Notes under the pieces: model-generated
Database searches by the model: none
What the model saw: the letters and a program-made list of their open reading frames with translations, nothing else
What the model was told of the DNA's origin: nothing
Assembly (NCBI GenBank): GCA_036556125.1
Contig: DATBJZ010000138.1
Location: 124 to 64,123, forward strand
Reading direction: 5' to 3'
Origin: Gemmatimonadota bacterium
GTDB taxonomy: Bacteria; Gemmatimonadota; Gemmatimonadetes; JACCXV01
Length of the DNA stretch: 64,000 bases
Program-made: the position numbers and the translations under genes
Part shown: one piece after another, positions 58,177-64,000 of the stretch
How the letters are laid out: every line of letters begins with the position of its first letter
Position numbering within the stretch: the stretch's first letter is position 1

Positions 58177-59066
58177 CGACGGAGCTCCGGACGCCCACGT
58201 CCGTCGGCATTCTCGGCTGCGGCCGCTTCGGCGCCTTCCTCGCGAGCCGCCTCGCAGCGGACTTCGAGGTCGTGGTCGCCGACGAGGCCGACCGCGCCGC
58301 GGAGGCGCGCCGGGCCGGCGCGCGCTGGGCCGCGCTCGACGACGTGGCGCGCTGCCGGTGGGTCGTGGCGGCCGTGCCGATCGGCCGGCTGCGCGCCGCG
58401 CTCGCGGAGCTCGCCGCGCGAATGGGCCCGGGGCAGGTGCTGGTGGACGTCTGTTCGGTCAAGGAGCTGCCGGCCGGCTGGCTGCGGGAGGCGGCGCCGC
58501 CGGGGGTCTCGGTCGTCGCCACCCATCCGCTCTTCGGGCCCGATTCCGCGGCGAGATCCCTCGTGGGTCTTCCGCTCGTGATCTGCCCCGCGGTGCGGGC
58601 CGCCGCTTGCGCCCGGTCGTCCGGCGGATCCGGGGATGCCGTTCACGACGATGCAGCGGCCGCGGGGGATCACGACGCCGCACGGCGGCTGGCGGCGTAC
58701 GCCCGGTCCCGCGGGCTCCGGGTCCTCACGCTGGACGCGTCCGAGCACGATCGCGCGATGGCGCGCACACAGGCGCTCACGTTCTTCCTCTCGCGCGTCC
58801 TGTCGCGGCTCGACCTCCCGCAGCCGGAGGGACCCGTCGGGACGCGCTCGTACCGGAACCTCCGGGCCGCGCTGGAGAGCGTCGCGCGCGACACCGACGA
58901 GCTCTACCGCGACCTGGTCCGATTCAATCCGCACGCGCGCCGATTCCTCGAGGAGGTCGCGCGCGCGATGGGAGCGGAGGCGGATGCGCTGGGGCTCGGC
59001 GACGAGGCGCGCGTCGCGCGCGACGTCGTCCGGTCCGGCGCGCCACGGCAGCGCGCTGCATATTGA
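58173..59066 (+). CDS. Prephenate/arogenate dehydrogenase family protein (TyrA-like NAD-binding); start uncertain
   Basis: SVGILGCGRFGAFLASRL Rossmann motif right after the NmrA stop, with no canonical start nearby (in-frame CTG at 58173). Core VLVDVCSVKE...VATHPLFGP. Confidence 0.55.
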   Translation: MTTELRTPTSVGILGCGRFGAFLASRLAADFEVVVADEADRAAEARRAGARWAALDDVARCRWVVAAVPIGRLRAALAELAARMGPGQVLVDVCSVKELPAGWLREAAPPGVSVVATHPLFGPDSAARSLVGLPLVICPAVRAAACARSSGGSGDAVHDDAAAAGDHDAARRLAAYARSRGLRVLTLDASEHDRAMARTQALTFFLSRVLSRLDLPQPEGPVGTRSYRNLRAALESVARDTDELYRDLVRFNPHARRFLEEVARAMGAEADALGLGDEARVARDVVRSGAPRQRAAY

Positions 59067-59153
59067 GCGCGGCGCGGGCGGTCCTCGCCGGACGCGGGGG
59101 CACGTCGCGCGGGTCCGACACGTCCATTCACGACCGAATCGAGGGAGACCGTC

Positions 59154-59888
59154 ATGCCCGCCGCCATCCTCCTCGCGCTGTCCCTCGCGGGTGCGCCGCC
59201 GGACACGACCGCCGAGGACGTCATCGGTGCCATGCACGAACGCTACGCCGGCAGCTGGCCGAAGAACGTGACGTTCGTCCAGACCAGCTCCTGGATCGAG
59301 AGCGACAGCATCGTCCGCCAGGAGACCTGGTACGAGGCGATCGAGCCCGGCAAGCTGCGCATCGACATCGCCCCGCTCGAGAACGGCAACGCGATCCTCT
59401 TCCGGAACGACTCCGTGTACCGGTTCCAGAGCGACTCGCTGGTGGCGAGCGCCTACCAGCCGCACCCGCTGATGGTCCTCTCACGCGACGTGTACGAGCT
59501 GCCGCCCGAGCAGACGATGGCGAAGCTCGAGCGGCTCGGCTTCGACCTCACGAAGGTGCGCGAGGACGTGTGGCAGGGTCGGCCCGCGTGGGTCGTGGGA
59601 GCGGCCGCCGGCGACTCCACGTCCGCGCAGTTCTGGGTGGACCGCGAGCGGCTGCTGTTCACGCGCCTCATCCAGCCTTCTCGGCAGGATCCCTCCGTGA
59701 CCGAGGAGATCCAGTTCAACGAGTACGTCCCGCTGGGGAACGGCTGGATCGAGACGGAGGTCGTGTTCCTCGCGAACGGCCGGCGCGTCTTCCACGAGGC
59801 CTACGCCGAGCCCCGCGAGAACGTGACGTTCGACGACGCCCTGTTCGACCCGCAGCGGTTCGGGCGTCCAGGCTGGGTGAAGGAGTAG
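59154..59888 (+). CDS. Hypothetical secreted protein (LolA-like fold suspected)
   Basis: ATG after gagggagacc. Signal MPAAILLALSLAGAPP. 244 aa, no low complexity. Confidence 0.55.
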   Translation: MPAAILLALSLAGAPPDTTAEDVIGAMHERYAGSWPKNVTFVQTSSWIESDSIVRQETWYEAIEPGKLRIDIAPLENGNAILFRNDSVYRFQSDSLVASAYQPHPLMVLSRDVYELPPEQTMAKLERLGFDLTKVREDVWQGRPAWVVGAAAGDSTSAQFWVDRERLLFTRLIQPSRQDPSVTEEIQFNEYVPLGNGWIETEVVFLANGRRVFHEAYAEPRENVTFDDALFDPQRFGRPGWVKE

Positions 59889-59921
59889 GGCCGGGCTCTC
59901 ACTCCCTCGAAAGGAGGAGCG

Positions 59922-60341
59922 ATGGCACGCTACGGAAAGGGAGCGTCGAAGTCGGTCGGGAGCGCGATGCGCCGCCGGAAGCGCGGGACGCTGAAGAGCG
60001 GCAGCGGCAGGAAGGTGAAGAGCCGCAAGCAGGCGATCGCCATCGGGCTCTCGGAGGCGCGGAAGAAGGGCGCGAAGGTGCCGCGGAAGAAGGGCGGCTC
60101 GAAGCGCTCGGGGTCGAAGCGCTCGTCGTCCCGGAAGTCGTCCGGCGGCCGGCGCTCCTCGTCGTCCCGGAGGTCGTCGGGCACCCGGCGTTCCTCGTCG
60201 TCCCGGAGGTCGTCGGGCAGCCGGCGCTCCGCCTCGTCCCGCAAGTCGTCGGGCGGCCGGCGTTCCTCCGGCTCCCGTCGCGCGTCGAGCTCGCGGCGCT
60301 CGAGCTCGGGACGGAAGCGCTCCCCTTCGCGGAAGCGCTGA
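59922..60341 (+). CDS. DUF6496-family small basic protein with a Ser/Arg tandem-repeat tail
   Basis: ATG after aaaggaggagc. N-terminus MARYGKGASKSVGSAMRRRKRGTLKSGSGRKVKSRKQAIAIGLSEARKKGAKVP is the DUF6496 signature. Then (RRSSSSRRSSG)n. Confidence 0.7.
   Translation: MARYGKGASKSVGSAMRRRKRGTLKSGSGRKVKSRKQAIAIGLSEARKKGAKVPRKKGGSKRSGSKRSSSRKSSGGRRSSSSRRSSGTRRSSSSRRSSGSRRSASSRKSSGGRRSSGSRRASSSRRSSSGRKRSPSRKR
60115..60300 (+). repeat. About five tandem copies of a roughly 36-nt unit (cgctcctcgtcgtcccggaggtcgtcgggcacccgg) encoding the SR-rich tail
   Basis: Direct inspection of 60115-60300. Copies differ at a few positions. Confidence 0.7.
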
Positions 60342-60455
60342 CGCCGGACCGAGCGGCGGCGGGAGGAGGAACGATGCCTCCCGCCGCCCCGCTTCGCCTG
60401 TCGGTCGAGTCGCGCGGGCGCTATCGGATCGAGACGGGTTCGAGCACGGCCGACG

Positions 60456-62561
60456 CTACGAGAACAGGTCGGGCTGTGACGCGGCCGCACCGGCCGGTCG
60501 GCGGAACGCCGCCGTCGACAGCTCCGGACCGCGCGTCGACAGTCCGGCGCGCCGGCATCCCGCCGCGAACAGCGAGCCGATCGCCGCGGCGATCGGCCCC
60601 TCCCCGCGCTGACGGTAGCCGAACCGCGGGTCGTTGAGCCGGCCGCCGCGCATCTCCCGGATCCGCCCCAGCACCTTCGACTTCTTCTCCGGGTAGCGCT
60701 CGTCGAGCCACCGCTCGAAGAGCGGCGCCACGGCGTGCGGCAGCTTGATCGGCACGTACCCGGCGAAGCACGCGCCGGCGTCCGCGGCTGCCTGCAGGAT
60801 CGCCGGCAGCTCGTGGTCGGTGAGACCGGGGATGACCGGGGCGACGAGCACCCCCACCGGCACGCCGGCCCGGCTGAGCTTCTCGATCGCGGTCAGCCGT
60901 CGCGCCGGTGTGGACGTACGCGGCTCCATCGTGCGCGCGAGGTCGGGATCCAGCGTGGTCACCGAGACGTTCACGGCCGCCGCGTCGACCGCGGCGAGCT
61001 CGGCCAGGAGATCCGCGTCGCGCGTCACGAGGTGGTTCTTCGTGATGACACCCACCGGATTCCGAAACTCCACCAGAACCTCGAGGCAGCGGCGCGTGAT
61101 CCCCAGCCGGCGCTCGATCGGCTGGTAGCAGTCGGTGTTCCCGGAGAGAGCGATCACCTGCGGCTCCCAGCGCGGCGACGACAGCTCGCGCCGGAGCAGC
61201 TCGGGCGCGTTCTCCTTCACCAGGATCTTCGTCTCGAAGTCGAGGCCGGCGGACAAGCCGAGGTATTCGTGCGAGGGGCGGGCGAAGCAATTGTGGCTCA
61301 CGACCCCGTTCGCGATGAAGTCGCCGGTGCCGGTCGTGATGTCGTACAGCGTTCGCATCCCGATGGGCTCGATGCTGACCACGCCCAGAGGGGCCGAGCT
61401 CTCGAGAGCCTGCCCTGCGATGTCGCGCTTCCGGCGGATGGCGGGATCGACGAGGTGCATGAAGCGCAGGTGCTGGCGCAGTCCGCCGGTGAGGCGGGCG
61501 ATCAAGAGCGGTTTACGGGTGCCCGGTTGAACTTCCAGAACGGACGAGAAGCCGAATCGGTGGAGAGCCCATCGTGTCTCCTGAATGATGGTCGGCTCGG
61601 TGTTGAAGATCCTGAGAATGCCGCCCGAATAACCTCCCTCGGCATCGAAGATTCCTGCGAGGAATCCACGCGACCATTCTGCGGTCGCAGCTCGCGGCCA
61701 CTCGATGAGCCCTAGCACCCGCTCGAAGGCATCCGGGTTGTTGGCGGAGATCGCGCGGATCTCCTTGCGAGTTCCCGTTGCGTTCTGGAAGACGAATCTC
61801 CGCGTCTCGAGTCCGAAATCACGCAGGTACGCCGCCGTTCTGTCGAGTCCGTCATCGTCGATGAGCGCAACGCGGAAGTGGTGCCGGACTCCAGATCCCC
61901 GTTCGTACCGCCGGAGAAGCCCATCTCCACGGATCATTCCAGAGAGATAGCCGAGCCTGTAGTCAGCGGAGACCAGCTGGTGCCGAGGCAGCGCGCCGAC
62001 CCCGACAAGCTTGTTCTTGAGTGTGAGGCGGGGACGGCAGTTTCGGCCGCACCCCGCTCCCGTCACGAACTTCCAGCCTCGCTCCGTGAGAAACCGATGG
62101 TCTCCACTGGCGACCAACTCCGTGCCGTCCTCCAGCATGATTCGGTGCGCCAGCTTCCGCGTGTCCCAGTGCGCCAGGACTCGAGTGCGCACGTAGTAAC
62201 GACCGCGTTGCCGCCGGATCGTTCCATAAATCTCGTCCCCCGTTTTGAGATCGCCGATCGGACGAGCCTGACCGTCGGCCGTCAACACGCTGGTGTCGCC
62301 GAGATGGCAGTAGGCACATCCATGCTGGCATCCCCTGTACGGATTGATCCCCGCGTCGAACCCGACGTCCGGGCTGTCGTTGTGTGCGATGACGCTCTGC
62401 GTACGATCGCTGAAGTACTGCGTCCGGGGCGCCGGCAACTCGAGGTCGCCGGCCTCCTCCAGGTCGGCTAGATCCGGCTCGACGTGCAGTCGCTCGAACC
62501 GATTCGGCGGATTCCAGGAAGCGCCGCGGCCTCGCGGCGCCGGATTGCGGGGTGAGGACAC
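60456..62561 (-). CDS. PA0069/SplB-like radical SAM protein interrupted by a full-size intein (precursor 701 aa; mature about 361 aa)
   Basis: N-extein ...GINPYRGCQHGCAY. Intein CHLGDTSVLTADG...(LAGLIDADG blocks LGYLSGMIRGDG and FLAGIFDAEGG)...TGTGDFIANGVVSHN. C-extein CFARPSHEYLGLSAGLDFETKILVKENAPELL..., which is the PA0069-family signature. GTG start. Confidence 0.9.
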   Translation of the reverse strand: MSSPRNPAPRGRGASWNPPNRFERLHVEPDLADLEEAGDLELPAPRTQYFSDRTQSVIAHNDSPDVGFDAGINPYRGCQHGCAYCHLGDTSVLTADGQARPIGDLKTGDEIYGTIRRQRGRYYVRTRVLAHWDTRKLAHRIMLEDGTELVASGDHRFLTERGWKFVTGAGCGRNCRPRLTLKNKLVGVGALPRHQLVSADYRLGYLSGMIRGDGLLRRYERGSGVRHHFRVALIDDDGLDRTAAYLRDFGLETRRFVFQNATGTRKEIRAISANNPDAFERVLGLIEWPRAATAEWSRGFLAGIFDAEGGYSGGILRIFNTEPTIIQETRWALHRFGFSSVLEVQPGTRKPLLIARLTGGLRQHLRFMHLVDPAIRRKRDIAGQALESSAPLGVVSIEPIGMRTLYDITTGTGDFIANGVVSHNCFARPSHEYLGLSAGLDFETKILVKENAPELLRRELSSPRWEPQVIALSGNTDCYQPIERRLGITRRCLEVLVEFRNPVGVITKNHLVTRDADLLAELAAVDAAAVNVSVTTLDPDLARTMEPRTSTPARRLTAIEKLSRAGVPVGVLVAPVIPGLTDHELPAILQAAADAGACFAGYVPIKLPHAVAPLFERWLDERYPEKKSKVLGRIREMRGGRLNDPRFGYRQRGEGPIAAAIGSLFAAGCRRAGLSTRGPELSTAAFRRPAGAAASQPDLFS
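61290..62309 (-). mobile_element. Intein with LAGLIDADG homing-endonuclease domain (about 340 aa) inserted in the radical SAM CX3CX2C motif
   Basis: Starts with Cys (block A CHLGDTSVLTADG). Two LAGLIDADG motifs. Ends ...VVSHN followed by +1 Cys. Removing it restores the contiguous GCQHGCAYCFARPSHEYLG. Confidence 0.85.
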
Positions 62562-63033
62562 GTCGCACCTTCAGTCGTGCGGGCGAAGAGGCTCCACAGG
62601 GGGACACTGCAGGCCACCGAAAAAATACCGAAACCGGCCCGCCGTTGAAAGGGTGAGCTGGGCTTGACGAGGCGGGCTCGATTCCCCGCCCGCGGTCGCG
62701 ATGGGAGTCCGCGATGCGGAGATTCCGGCGGCATCGGACCGGTGCCGAGCTGCCGGGCACAACCCCTGGCGGGGGCCGCCTCGGCACGGACCGAAGGTCG
62801 CGCGGCCTCGCTCCGCGTGCGCCTCGCTCAGCCGGCCGCAAGCGGGGGCCCCCGGTCACCGGCTCTTCTCGCAGCGGGCCGGATCGCCGTTTGCACGGGT
62901 CGCGCACCGCAAGCGAGCCGTACGCCGGCCGCCGACGGTCACGTCCGCCACACGCCGCGGCATCTCGCGCTCGCGGCCGCGGACCTCTGCTCCGTACATT
63001 TCTCTCTCCACACACGCACACAGGGAGGTCGCC

Positions 63034-63543
63034 GTGTCCTACGTCGAGGTGCGCCGGGGAATCCTCTCCGAGGAGAACCGGACCAAGAGGGAGGAGCTCC
63101 TCGAGCTCCTCAAGAAGGCCTACTGGATGGAGATCGAGACCGTGATGAGCTACATCGCGAACTCGGTCAACCCGGACGGCGTGCGCGCCCAGGAGATCGT
63201 CGAGAGCCTCAGGGAGGACGTGACCGAGGAGCTGGGCCACGCGCAGCAGTTCGCGCAGCGGATCAAGGAGCTCTACGGCGTCGTCCCGGGATCGCTCGAG
63301 TTCACGGCCGAGCAGAGCTATCTGCAGCCGCCCGAGGTCCAGACCGACGTGATCCACGTGGTCCGCGGCGTGATCGAGGCCGAGCGCGGCGCGATCGAGC
63401 ACTACAACCGCGTCATCGAGTTCTGCGACGGGCTGGACCTCGTGACGCAGGACATGATGATCGACATCCTGCGCGACGAGGAGGGGCACCTCCGCCTGTT
63501 CGAGGGCTTCCTGCGCGAGTACGAAGCCGAGGGGCTCGCCTAG
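63034..63543 (+). CDS. Ferritin-like domain protein
   Basis: GTG after cagggagg. Helical ferritin-like pattern with paired E..H motifs (EELGHAQQFAQRIKE, ERGAIEHYNRV, EEGHLRLFEGFL). Confidence 0.75.
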   Translation: MSYVEVRRGILSEENRTKREELLELLKKAYWMEIETVMSYIANSVNPDGVRAQEIVESLREDVTEELGHAQQFAQRIKELYGVVPGSLEFTAEQSYLQPPEVQTDVIHVVRGVIEAERGAIEHYNRVIEFCDGLDLVTQDMMIDILRDEEGHLRLFEGFLREYEAEGLA

Positions 63544-63649
63544 CACGGCAGCCCGCTGGACGCCGCGCATCCGCCGCCCCCCCGCGGGGACGGCGGCGCC
63601 GGTGCCTCGGCTCCGCACGTCGCCGACGGTCGGCGTGACGCACGGTCCG

Positions 63650-64000
63650 CCGCGTCGGACCGGCGGATCCTCTACGCCGCAGCGTTCCTGCGGTCGCTCG
63701 CGACCGGCGCGATCGGCGTCCTTCTCGGGATCCACCTCTCCCGCGTCGGCCTCGACGCGGCGGCGATCGGCGCCGTCGTCTCCGCCGGCCTCGCCGGCGC
63801 GACCGCCGCGGCCCTGCTGGCGACCGTCGCGGGCGACCGGATCGGCCGGCGCCGGCTCCTCGCCGCCCTGGCGCTGCTGGGCGGGGCCGGAGGGGTCGGG
63901 GTCGCGCTCGCATCCGATCCGCTCGCGCTGGCCGCCGCCGCGTTCGTGGGGATGGCGAACGGAATGGGGCGGGACCGCGGCGCCGCGCTCATCCTGGAGC
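63650..64000 (+). CDS. MFS transporter, N-terminal part; continues beyond the window end
   Basis: RILYAAAFLRSLATGAIGVLLGIHLSRVGLDAAAIGAVVSAGLAGATAAALLATVAGDRIGRRRLL contains MFS motif A (GDRIGRRR). No canonical start found in frame after the ferritin stop. Confidence 0.45.

What the first reader, a model, noticed from the sequence alone, without database searches (positions are those of the whole stretch)
60456..62561. LAGLIDADG intein inserted in the iron-sulfur cluster motif of a PA0069-type radical SAM enzyme
The 701-aa ORF aligns end to end with PA0069/SplB-like radical SAM proteins except for a roughly 340-aa insertion. The insertion begins with Cys (CHLGDTSVLTADG), carries both LAGLIDADG motifs (LGYLSGMIRGDG and FLAGIFDAEGG), and ends in HN followed by Cys. 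These are the defining features of a class 1 intein with a homing endonuclease. The insertion splits GCQHGCAY | CFARPSHEY, so the third cluster-ligating Cys of the CX3CX2C motif is the +1 splice nucleophile. Hence the 4Fe-4S/SAM site can form only after splicing, which suggests conditional (for example redox-dependent) maturation.
Basis: partly seen in the sequence, partly recalled or inferred. Interest (0 to 1): 0.85.

Follow-up and report, generated by a model that had tools for sequence, protein, structure and literature searches.

The report
Intein splitting a radical SAM iron-sulfur motif
A DNA-damage-type radical SAM enzyme gene of a Gemmatimonadota bacterium is interrupted, exactly at the third cysteine of its iron-sulfur motif, by a self-splicing mobile intein with a homing endonuclease. 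The feature is real and intact, but it belongs to a widespread and already catalogued intein lineage.

Summary
ORF 60456-62561 (-) encodes a 701-aa precursor. Residues 85-424 (window 61290-62309) form a 340-aa class 1 intein with a LAGLIDADG homing endonuclease. It is inserted as GCQHGCAY|C...HN|CFARP, so the +1 Cys is the third Cys of the CX3CX2C motif. The spliced 361-aa product is a full-length PA0069-family radical SAM protein. A syntenic ortholog lacks exactly these 340 residues.

It is not new in kind. COG1533 'SplB' inteins are listed in Novikova et al. 2016. NCBIfam has a model (NF038136) for the same intein at the same site in the sister Rv2578c family. At least 322 loci in a one-genome-per-species collection carry it.

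The best explanation is a selfish homing intein. Splicing rebuilds the cluster loop. The endonuclease is under purifying selection and substitutions cluster at the homing site.

Redox-gated or Fe-S-gated maturation is plausible, because C(-3)xxC1 has the geometry of the Pyrococcus abyssi MoaA 'redox trap'. It is untested.

One wider observation is less well documented. Related inteins occupy this same motif in many other radical SAM families and in phages.

Interest is moderate (0.4).

The parts
60456..62561 (-). Precursor CDS: 701 aa plus stop (stop codon 60456-60458), GTG start. PA0069-family radical SAM protein interrupted by an intein.
62310..62561 (-). N-extein, aa 1-84. It ends ...NPYRGC78QHGC82AY, which are the first two Cys of the CX3CX2C motif (62328-62330 and 62316-62318). 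C82 is at position -3 relative to intein Cys1.
61290..62309 (-). Intein, 340 aa (precursor aa 85-424). GC is 63.4% against 70.9% in the exteins. GC3 is 76% against 90%.
61971..62309 (-). N-terminal splicing (Hint) part, intein residues 1-113. Block A is CHLGDTSVLTADG (62271-62309) with Cys1 at 62307-62309. Block B is GTELVASGDHRFLT (62085-62126), with His71 invariant.
   Evidence: PDB sequence match to the Ssp DnaE intein 1zd7 over residues 5-113. Invariant columns in A2.
61425..61967 (-). LAGLIDADG homing endonuclease domain, intein residues about 115-295. Motif 1 is LGYLSGMIRGDG (61920-61955, Asp129). Motif 2 is FLAGIFDAEGG (61632-61664, Asp222 and Glu224).
   Evidence: PF14528 at 32.5 bits. 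I-DmoI matches by sequence and by fold, TM 0.78. Acidic residues are conserved. dN/dS is 0.15.
61290..61412 (-). C-terminal splicing part, intein residues about 300-340. Block F is LYDITTGTGDFIANG (61305-61349, Asp323 invariant). Block G is VVSHN, with His339 and Asn340 invariant.
60459..61289 (-). C-extein, aa 425-701. It begins with Cys425 (+1; 61287-61289), which is the third Cys of CX3CX2C, followed by FARPSHEY. It holds the rest of the radical SAM core.

Best explanation
The gene encodes a precursor of a PA0069-family (COG1533) radical SAM protein that carries a mobile class 1 intein.

The intein is a Hint splicing domain with a LAGLIDADG homing endonuclease nested inside it. It sits between Tyr84 and the third cysteine of the CX3CX2C motif.

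Inferred mechanism. After translation the intein folds. Cys85 (Cys1) makes the N-S acyl shift. Cys425 (+1) attacks the thioester. Asn424 cyclises and releases the intein. A peptide bond then joins Tyr84 to Cys425 and recreates CQHGCAYC, so the 361-aa enzyme can bind its [4Fe-4S] cluster and SAM. The free intein acts as a site-specific endonuclease. It cuts intein-less alleles in the roughly 20-bp stretch that encodes the cluster motif, and repair copies the intein in (homing).

The motif is both indispensable and conserved across the superfamily. The site is therefore hard for the host to mutate away from. The same lineage has spread between PA0069, Rv2578c and other radical SAM families, across phyla and in phages.

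Shown here: architecture, boundaries, catalytic residues, empty-site alleles, evolutionary signatures. Inferred: actual splicing and cleavage activity.
For: Anatomy. C1, block B His, block F Asp, terminal His-Asn and +1 Cys are all present. They are invariant in 18 diverse relatives. C1, the terminal His-Asn and the +1 Cys were found by pattern in 114 of the 120 closest homologs. The other six keep C1 but their C-terminal junction was not resolved.

Profiles. LAGLIDADG_3 is above its cut-off. The intein matches profile positions 76-334 of NF038136 with E 2e-63, and the C-extein resumes at position 335.

Structure. The AF2 model has pLDDT 91.5. Its best PDB matches are TliVMA, PI-SceI and PI-PfuI inteins (E 1e-14 to 6e-16) and I-DmoI (TM 0.78).

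Spliced product. It is a full-length PA0069 protein (477 bits, cut-off 360). Pfam Radical_SAM then aligns from profile position 1 in a single stretch.

Empty site. P0121 is 361 aa and 88% identical to the spliced product. Its exteins are 96.7% identical to those of intein-bearing P0002. It reads CSNGCTYCFARP with nothing in between. Its locus L144 has the same gene order as the window.

Homing signature. Between L145 (intein present) and L144 (intein absent), 11 of 48 extein differences fall in the 24 nt spanning the junction. Binomial P is 6.5e-9, and 0 of 200,000 permutations reach this.

Selection. dN/dS is 0.15 for the endonuclease domain, 0.22 for the Hint parts and 0.13 for the exteins.

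Homing-cycle stages. Mini-inteins of 155-236 aa without LAGLIDADG motifs occur at the same site.

Foreign composition. Intein GC is 63% against 71% in the exteins, and GC3 is 76% against 90%.

Spread. At least 322 loci were found in species-representative genomes of Actinomycetota, Gemmatimonadota, Proteobacteria, Omnitrophota, Planctomycetota and others. Every resolved N-terminal junction among the best 80 (79 of 80; in L045 the match starts at intein residue 14) reads C-x3-C-x2|C, and all resolved C-exteins begin with Cys. Intein distances between the PA0069 and Rv2578c host families (0.467) are about the same as within families (0.41-0.44). Extein distances are 0.707 between families against 0.46 within.
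Against: Nothing contradicts the intein identification. There are weak points.
- Generic intein profiles (PF14890, TIGR01445) score just below their curated cut-offs.
- The block B 'T' of TxxH is Ser here.
- Splicing and endonuclease activity are inferred, not observed.
- The substitution cluster at the junction could reflect co-conversion during homing, a cleavage-resistant empty allele, or a footprint of loss. These were not distinguished.
- The NJ tree of inteins is star-like and has no support values.
Confidence: 0.88

Rival explanations
1. The intein is a domesticated post-translational switch. This can hold in addition to its being selfish.

Cys1 and Cys+1 are embedded in the cluster motif, with Cys82 at -3 and Cys78 at -7. 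Oxidising conditions would lock the precursor through a C82-C85 disulfide (CAYC, a CXXC motif) or a C85-C425 disulfide. Alternatively, metal or Fe-S binding to these thiols would block the acyl shift. The oxygen-labile enzyme would then mature only when the cell is reducing.
For: The N-extein ends C(-3)-A-Y|C1. This is the same Cys-3:Cys1 arrangement reported to form a native disulfide that controls splicing in the P. abyssi MoaA intein. MoaA is itself an oxygen-sensitive enzyme (reviews PMC3922620; PMC10663303).

A Cys1:Cys+1 disulfide blocks the Pab PolII intein.

The C-x2|C context holds at every resolved N-terminal junction of this lineage (79 of the best 80 genome loci).

The founding host-family members are SOS genes. 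Rv2578c has a LexA site and RecA-dependent induction. PA0069 is one of 15 SOS genes in P. aeruginosa. A stress link is therefore conceivable.

A ferritin-like gene is the conserved divergent neighbour.
Against: There are no experimental data for this family.

The C(-3) is dictated by the host motif, so it would be there whether or not it regulates anything.

Intein-free alleles are common, including a 96.7%-identical one, so the host does not need the intein.

All evolutionary signatures found are those of a parasitic homing element: polymorphism, mini-inteins, cross-family spread, and a conserved endonuclease.
Confidence: 0.25
2. The intein is dead. It no longer splices, the 701-aa product is non-functional, and the gene is effectively a pseudogene.
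For: The only support is indirect. Generic intein profiles score below their cut-offs, and block B has Ser instead of Thr.
Against: Every catalytic residue is present and invariant across relatives.

The ORF is uninterrupted.

The exteins are under strong purifying selection (dN/dS 0.13), as are the Hint parts (0.22).

The AF2 model has high confidence.
Confidence: 0.04
3. The 340 residues are an ordinary inserted domain of the enzyme and not an intein. For example, a DNA-binding LAGLIDADG module could have been recruited by a DNA-repair radical SAM protein and kept in the mature protein.
For: LAGLIDADG folds have been recruited as DNA-binding domains elsewhere. One example is WhiA, which appears among the distant fold hits (3hyj). 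The host family is linked to DNA damage.
Against: The insert interrupts the CX3CX2C loop itself.

It is flanked by the complete set of splicing residues.

The LAGLIDADG domain is nested in a Hint fold.

Close orthologs lack it precisely.

Mini versions keep only the Hint parts.
Confidence: 0.01

Closest known systems
Inteins in COG1533 'SplB / DNA repair photolyase' proteins (Novikova et al. 2016, Mol Biol Evol, PMC4760082) and NCBIfam NF038136 'intein-containing Rv2578c family radical SAM protein'
   Same: The host superfamily and COG are the same. The intein is homologous (215 bits, E 2e-63 on the intein segment of NF038136). The insertion point is the same: the profile switches from N-extein to intein at position 76 and back at position 335, which aligns with the +1 Cys. 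Junctions in 42 Rv2578c-type loci read TINPYRGCSHACxY|C...HN|CFAR.
   Different: The host here is the PA0069 family, not Rv2578c. The full protein scores 474 bits on NF038136, below its 700 cut-off. The organism is a Gemmatimonadota bacterium, whereas the 2016 survey lists Actinobacteria only. That paper's main text does not mention radical SAM or the iron-sulfur motif. NCBI names the protein simply 'PA0069 family radical SAM protein' without flagging the intein.
Pyrococcus abyssi MoaA intein (Callahan et al. 2011, Nat Struct Mol Biol; described in PMC3922620 and PMC10663303)
   Same: It is an intein in an oxygen-sensitive radical SAM enzyme. It has a Cys at -3 and Cys1 forming a CXXC unit, and it has been shown to act as a disulfide 'redox trap' that blocks splicing until reduced.
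   Different: The host is archaeal and of a different radical SAM family. I could not read the primary paper. I could not verify whether that intein sits in the CX3CX2C motif or in MoaA's C-terminal CX2C motif. No redox data exist for the present lineage.
PI-SceI, PI-PfuI and TliVMA: bifunctional intein-homing endonucleases
   Same: They share the two-domain architecture, with a Hint fold interrupted by a two-motif LAGLIDADG endonuclease. They are the best structural matches (E 6e-16 to 1e-14).
   Different: Sequence identity is only 14-16%. The present intein is smaller (340 aa against 430-540 aa). It apparently lacks the extra DNA-recognition region of PI-SceI. Its endonuclease core resembles I-DmoI (TM 0.78).
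Inteins clustered in P-loop and other signature motifs of non-orthologous ATPases (Novikova et al. 2016)
   Same: The principle is the same. One intein lineage uses a superfamily-wide catalytic motif as its landing site and so appears in non-orthologous proteins.
   Different: Here the motif is the radical SAM CX3CX2C. The hosts include PA0069, Rv2578c, DUF5131, B12-binding radical SAM, QueE and SPASM maturases. I found no paper that describes this for radical SAM enzymes.

Membership tests
Class 1 intein | Cys, Ser or Thr as first residue (block A) | tested here: met
   Cys85 starts CHLGDTSVLTADG. C1 is invariant in alignment A2 and was found by pattern in 114 of the 120 closest homologs. The other six also start with Cys, but their C-terminal junction was not resolved.
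Class 1 intein | Block B TxxH with a conserved His | tested here: met
   The sequence is SGDH. His71 of the intein is invariant. The Thr position is Ser or Gly in this lineage.
Class 1 intein | Block F Asp and block G terminal His-Asn, followed by Cys, Ser or Thr at +1 | tested here: met
   LYDITTGTGDFIANGVVSHN|C. D323, H339 and N340 are invariant. TIGR01443 scores 18.1 against a cut-off of 15.6 when +1 is included.
Class 1 intein | Match to curated generic intein profiles at their thresholds | tested here: not met
   PF14890 scores 24.0 bits against a cut-off of 35.8. TIGR01445 scores 23.2 against 24.5. These are near misses. The lineage-specific NF038136 segment scores 215 bits.
Class 1 intein | Hint fold with the endonuclease nested inside | tested here: met
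   The AF2 model has pLDDT 91.5. Foldseek hits to TliVMA, PI-SceI and PI-PfuI have probability 1.00.
Class 1 intein | Precise absence from orthologs, leaving a contiguous host motif | tested here: met
   P0121, P0123, P0124 and P0131 lack exactly aa 85-424. L144 is syntenic with the window.
Class 1 intein | Protein splicing actually occurs | not testable with these tools
   This needs expression and detection of ligated exteins.
LAGLIDADG homing endonuclease | Two LAGLIDADG motifs, each with a catalytic acidic residue | tested here: met
   LGYLSGMIRGD129G and FLAGIFDAE224G. D129 and D222 are invariant, and position 224 is Asp or Glu. PF14528 scores 32.5 against a cut-off of 22.5. The fold matches I-DmoI with TM 0.78.
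LAGLIDADG homing endonuclease | Site-specific cleavage of the intein-less allele | not testable with these tools
   Only indirect evidence is available: dN/dS 0.15 and clustered substitutions at the junction.
PA0069 family radical SAM protein (NF033668) | Full-length match above the curated cut-off | tested here: met
   The spliced product scores 477.3 bits against a cut-off of 360, residues 10-357 on profile positions 1-345.
Radical SAM superfamily | CX3CX2C cluster-binding motif | tested here: met
   CQHGCAYC is contiguous only in the spliced product. PF04055 then aligns from profile position 1 (72 bits). That these three Cys ligate a [4Fe-4S] cluster follows from superfamily knowledge and was not tested.
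Intein-containing Rv2578c family radical SAM protein (NF038136) | Whole-protein score at or above 700 bits | tested here: not met
   The score is 474.4 bits. The intein is shared but the exteins belong to PA0069. The protein is not filed as a member.
Redox-trap inteins (P. abyssi MoaA type) | Cys at -3 forming CXXC with Cys1 | tested here: met
   The sequence is C82-A-Y-C85.
Redox-trap inteins (P. abyssi MoaA type) | A disulfide forms and reversibly blocks splicing | not testable with these tools
   This needs biochemistry.

The most novel reading that the evidence does not exclude
One intein lineage has specialised on the radical SAM signature motif itself. It inserts immediately before the third Cys of CX3CX2C, and occasionally before the second. 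It has hopped among at least six radical SAM families (PA0069, Rv2578c, DUF5131, B12-binding radical SAM, QueE, SPASM peptide maturases) in many bacterial phyla and in phages.

Its two splicing nucleophiles lie in or beside the cluster motif (Cys+1 is the third ligand; Cys1 takes its place in the precursor), next to two further ligand thiols. Splicing could therefore be gated by redox state or by Fe-S or metal loading. That would give a general post-translational oxygen/iron checkpoint on radical SAM enzyme maturation.

The distribution part is shown here. The gating part is speculation resting on the MoaA precedent.
Probability: 0.2. Interest if true: 0.65.

Novelty: new member of a known kind. 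Interest (0 to 1): 0.4.

Why it matters
For annotation. The protein is deposited as a plain 'PA0069 family radical SAM protein', and NCBIfam has an intein-aware model only for the sister family. Hundreds of roughly 700-aa homologs are therefore under-annotated.

For biology. It is a clean natural case in which both splicing nucleophiles lie in or beside an oxygen-sensitive cluster-binding motif. The same arrangement occurs in cultured organisms, including Micromonospora complete genomes and Microbulbifer magnicolonia. The long-running question of whether inteins are only parasites or also stress-responsive switches could therefore be tested directly in an Fe-S enzyme family whose founding members are SOS-regulated.

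For evolution. The spread of one intein lineage over many radical SAM families and phages illustrates that superfamily signature motifs act as shared landing pads.

Tried and rejected
- Exact-sequence contig look-up of the window protein found nothing. The homology search then found the identical NCBI protein.
- Literature searches covered intein + radical SAM, SplB, Rv2578c, PA0069, radical S-adenosylmethionine and 4Fe-4S. They gave only the 'SplB' table row in Novikova 2016. The Campylobacter phage paper mentions both terms but not together.
- The primary paper on the MoaA redox trap is not held. I could not confirm which MoaA cysteine motif that intein interrupts. 'Cys-3' is compatible with either CX3CX2|C or the C-terminal CX2|C.
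- I looked for an SOS box upstream. There is no GAAC-N4-GTTC anywhere in the window and only weak palindromes in 62540-63140.
- There is no Rfam match in 59000-64000.
- There is no second copy of the intein in the window.
- There is no solved structure for the PA0069 family. Only marginal sequence hits to spore photoproduct lyase were found (E 0.04).
- I considered and rejected 'ordinary inserted domain' and 'dead intein' (see rivals).
- I did not model the precursor, because the tool returns no coordinates from which Cys-Cys distances could be measured.
Full report
OBSERVATION. The ORF at 60456-62561 on the minus strand exists as described: GTG start, 701 aa. It is 100% identical over its full length to an NCBI protein named 'PA0069 family radical SAM protein' from a Gemmatimonadota MAG contig of 64,127 bp (P0001). 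The window is therefore essentially that contig. The insertion runs from Cys85 to Asn424, which is 340 aa at window 61290-62309. The junctions read GC78QHGC82AY | C85HLGDTSV ... GVVSHN424 | C425FARPSHEY.

IS IT AN INTEIN? Several independent lines agree.
- Profiles. LAGLIDADG_3 (PF14528) scores 32.5 bits against a cut-off of 22.5. The intein alone aligns to positions 76-334 of NCBIfam NF038136 ('intein-containing Rv2578c family radical SAM protein') with E 2e-63, and the C-extein resumes at profile position 335. The generic profiles PF14890 and TIGR01445 fall just short of their curated cut-offs. TIGR01443 passes when the +1 residue is included.
- Solved structures by sequence. Residues 5-113 match the Ssp DnaE intein, residues 120-287 match I-DmoI, and residues 305-340 match a DnaX mini-intein.
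- Fold. An AlphaFold2 model built on 18 diverse relatives has pLDDT 91.5 and pTM 0.86. Its best PDB matches are the endonuclease-bearing inteins TliVMA, PI-SceI and PI-PfuI (E 6e-16 to 1e-14). I-DmoI matches the central domain with TM 0.78.
- Catalytic residues. C1, His71 (block B), Asp323 (block F), His339-Asn340 and the LAGLIDADG acidic residues are invariant or nearly so. C1, the terminal HN and the +1 Cys were found by pattern in 114 of the 120 nearest homologs. The other six keep C1 but their C-terminal junction was not resolved.
- Empty sites. The nearest intein-free homologs lack exactly residues 85-424 and read C-x3-C-x2-C without interruption.

THE HOST. The spliced 361-aa sequence is a full-length PA0069-family radical SAM protein (NF033668, 477 bits, cut-off 360). 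Pfam Radical_SAM then aligns from profile position 1 in one piece. No structure is solved for this family. Spore photoproduct lyase is only a marginal sequence match. The function is unknown. Both name-giving members are SOS genes. Rv2578c has a LexA site and RecA-dependent induction (PMC3381160). PA0069 is one of 15 SOS genes of P. aeruginosa (bioRxiv 10.1101/2022.03.14.484287). This fits the known bias of inteins toward replication and repair proteins. I found no Gram-positive-type SOS box and no Rfam element upstream in the window.

EVIDENCE THAT IT IS, OR RECENTLY WAS, MOBILE.
- A metagenomic allele without the intein (P0121, locus L144) has the same neighbours as the window: divergent ferritin-like gene, radical SAM gene, small protein, a roughly 245-aa protein, and prephenate dehydrogenase.
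- The exteins of P0121 are 96.7% identical in protein, and 95.6% in DNA, to those of an intein-bearing allele (P0002, locus L145).
- Between these two alleles, 11 of the 48 nucleotide differences lie within 24 nt spanning the insertion point. Binomial P is 6.5e-9, and none of 200,000 permutations reached this. This is what co-conversion during homing, or selection for a cleavage-resistant empty site, would produce.
- The intein is compositionally foreign. GC is 63% against 71% in the exteins, and GC3 is 76% against 90%. L145 shows the same pattern.
- The endonuclease domain is under purifying selection. dN/dS is 0.15, against 0.22 for the Hint parts and 0.13 for the exteins.
- Mini-inteins of 155-236 aa that have lost the LAGLIDADG motifs occur at the same site in homologs. 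Full, degraded and empty states of the homing cycle all coexist.

DISTRIBUTION. The best 80 come from several groups:
- Actinomycetota, including complete Micromonospora genomes;
- Gemmatimonadota;
- Beta- and Gammaproteobacteria, for example Microbulbifer magnicolonia and Pelomicrobium;
- Omnitrophota, Armatimonadota, Gemmataceae and Kofleriaceae.

Every resolved N-terminal junction among these 80 loci (79 of 80; in L045 the match starts at intein residue 14) reads C-x3-C-x2|C, and all resolved C-exteins begin with Cys, in either a PA0069-type or an Rv2578c-type host. Intein divergence between the two host families (mean distance 0.467) is hardly greater than within them (0.41-0.44). The exteins differ much more between families (0.707 against 0.46). 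The intein therefore moved between the families after they diverged. Three PA0069-hosted inteins nest among Rv2578c-hosted ones in an unsupported NJ tree.

A WIDER PATTERN. Searching the intein alone against 1.8 billion representative proteins gave 1,879 hits, 219 of them below 1e-30. Among those with resolvable junctions, the host is almost always a radical SAM-type protein cut at the same motif. The hosts include:
- DUF5131 fused to ParB_N;
- B12-binding radical SAM proteins;
- small PA0069-like proteins;
- a MoaA/SPASM-like protein.

In viral contigs, 39 of 50 resolvable relatives sit in the motif, 37 before the third Cys and 2 before the second. Their hosts include bona fide QueE (243 bits, cut-off 206) and a CXXX-repeat peptide maturase (523 bits, cut-off 350). 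The most distant of these relatives are about 25% identical. They may share only general LAGLIDADG-intein ancestry, so this part is suggestive rather than proven.

MECHANISM. I commit to the ordinary reading. The element is a selfish homing intein. Its splicing restores CQHGCAYC, and its endonuclease targets the DNA encoding that motif. Confidence is 0.88 for identity and mode of persistence. Splicing and cleavage themselves are inferred.

Cys82 lies at -3 from Cys1 and forms a CXXC unit. This is the arrangement that traps the P. abyssi MoaA intein as a disulfide until reduced. Two qualifications apply. First, the -3 Cys is imposed by the host motif, so its presence says nothing about selection for regulation. 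Second, the precursor still contains a contiguous C-x3-C-x2-C, with intein Cys1 in third place. 'No cluster before splicing' is therefore not assured. Metal binding to the junction thiols might instead inhibit splicing. I give a regulatory role about 0.25.

NOVELTY. Novikova et al. [quoted passage not shown] Their main text does not mention radical SAM or iron-sulfur. NCBIfam models the sister-family case. The MoaA intein supplies the redox precedent. This instance is therefore a new member of a known kind, with a new host family label and a new phylum. The superfamily-wide use of the CX3CX2C motif as a landing site appears under-described in the literature I could search. That library omits most subscription journals.

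VERDICT. The feature is real, intact and well supported. It is biologically neat but not surprising to an intein specialist. Interest is 0.4. The most novel reading not excluded is a redox- or cofactor-gated maturation checkpoint shared by many radical SAM families. I put its probability at about 0.2 and its interest at about 0.65 if true.

Noticed in passing
window 59922-60341 (+): A DUF6496 protein (85 bits) carries a roughly 80-residue tail made almost entirely of Arg/Ser/Gly repeats (SSGGRRSSSSRRSSGTRRSSSSRRSSGSRR...). It is convergent with the radical SAM gene. A small protein occupies the same position in the intein-free locus L144.
   Followed up: partly
window 62562-63543; L144 4088-4597: A ferritin/rubrerythrin-like gene is transcribed divergently from the radical SAM gene. 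The two are separated by a long, roughly 480-bp GC-rich spacer with no Rfam hit. The adjacency is conserved in the intein-free ortholog locus. This may be a hint of an iron or oxidative-stress link to the unknown function of PA0069 proteins.
   Followed up: partly
L145 vs L144, nt 234-257 of the spliced CDS (window equivalent 62305-62327 and 61284-61289): Eleven of 48 substitutions between an intein-bearing and an intein-free allele are packed into the 24 nt around the insertion point, including CQHGCVY against CSNGCTY. This is either a co-conversion tract or a cleavage-resistant empty site. The two were not distinguished.
   Followed up: partly
L110 and L118 (viral contigs); P0281: In a few hosts (a phage QueE-like protein and a B12-binding radical SAM protein) a related intein sits before the second Cys (C-x3|C-x2-C) rather than the third. 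The motif therefore offers two insertion points.
   Followed up: partly
P0320, P0355, P0339, P0261, P0374, P0389: Mini-intein derivatives of 155-288 aa, without LAGLIDADG motifs, occur at the same CX3CX2|C site in PA0069/Rv2578c-type hosts.
   Followed up: partly
L005 (Solirubrobacterales MAG): Here the C-extein reading frame continues for 758 aa instead of about 270 aa. This suggests a fusion of the Rv2578c-type protein to another domain, or a missed stop.
   Followed up: no
window 60456-62561 vs L145: Synonymous divergence of the intein (dS 0.88) is clearly higher than that of the surrounding exteins (dS 0.50) in the same pair of alleles. Either the two inteins are older than the extein split (independent acquisition or extein conversion), or strong GC3 codon bias depresses extein dS.
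   Followed up: no
P0259, P0288, P0292: DUF5131 radical-SAM-like proteins fused to an N-terminal ParB-like domain, probably from phages or plasmids, carry a related intein at the equivalent Cys. This points to mobile elements as vehicles for the lineage.
   Followed up: partly
database annotation of P0001 and homologs: NCBI names the roughly 700-aa proteins 'PA0069 family radical SAM protein' and JGI names them 'DNA repair photolyase'. Neither mentions the intein. NCBIfam has an intein-aware exception model only for the Rv2578c family.
   Followed up: yes
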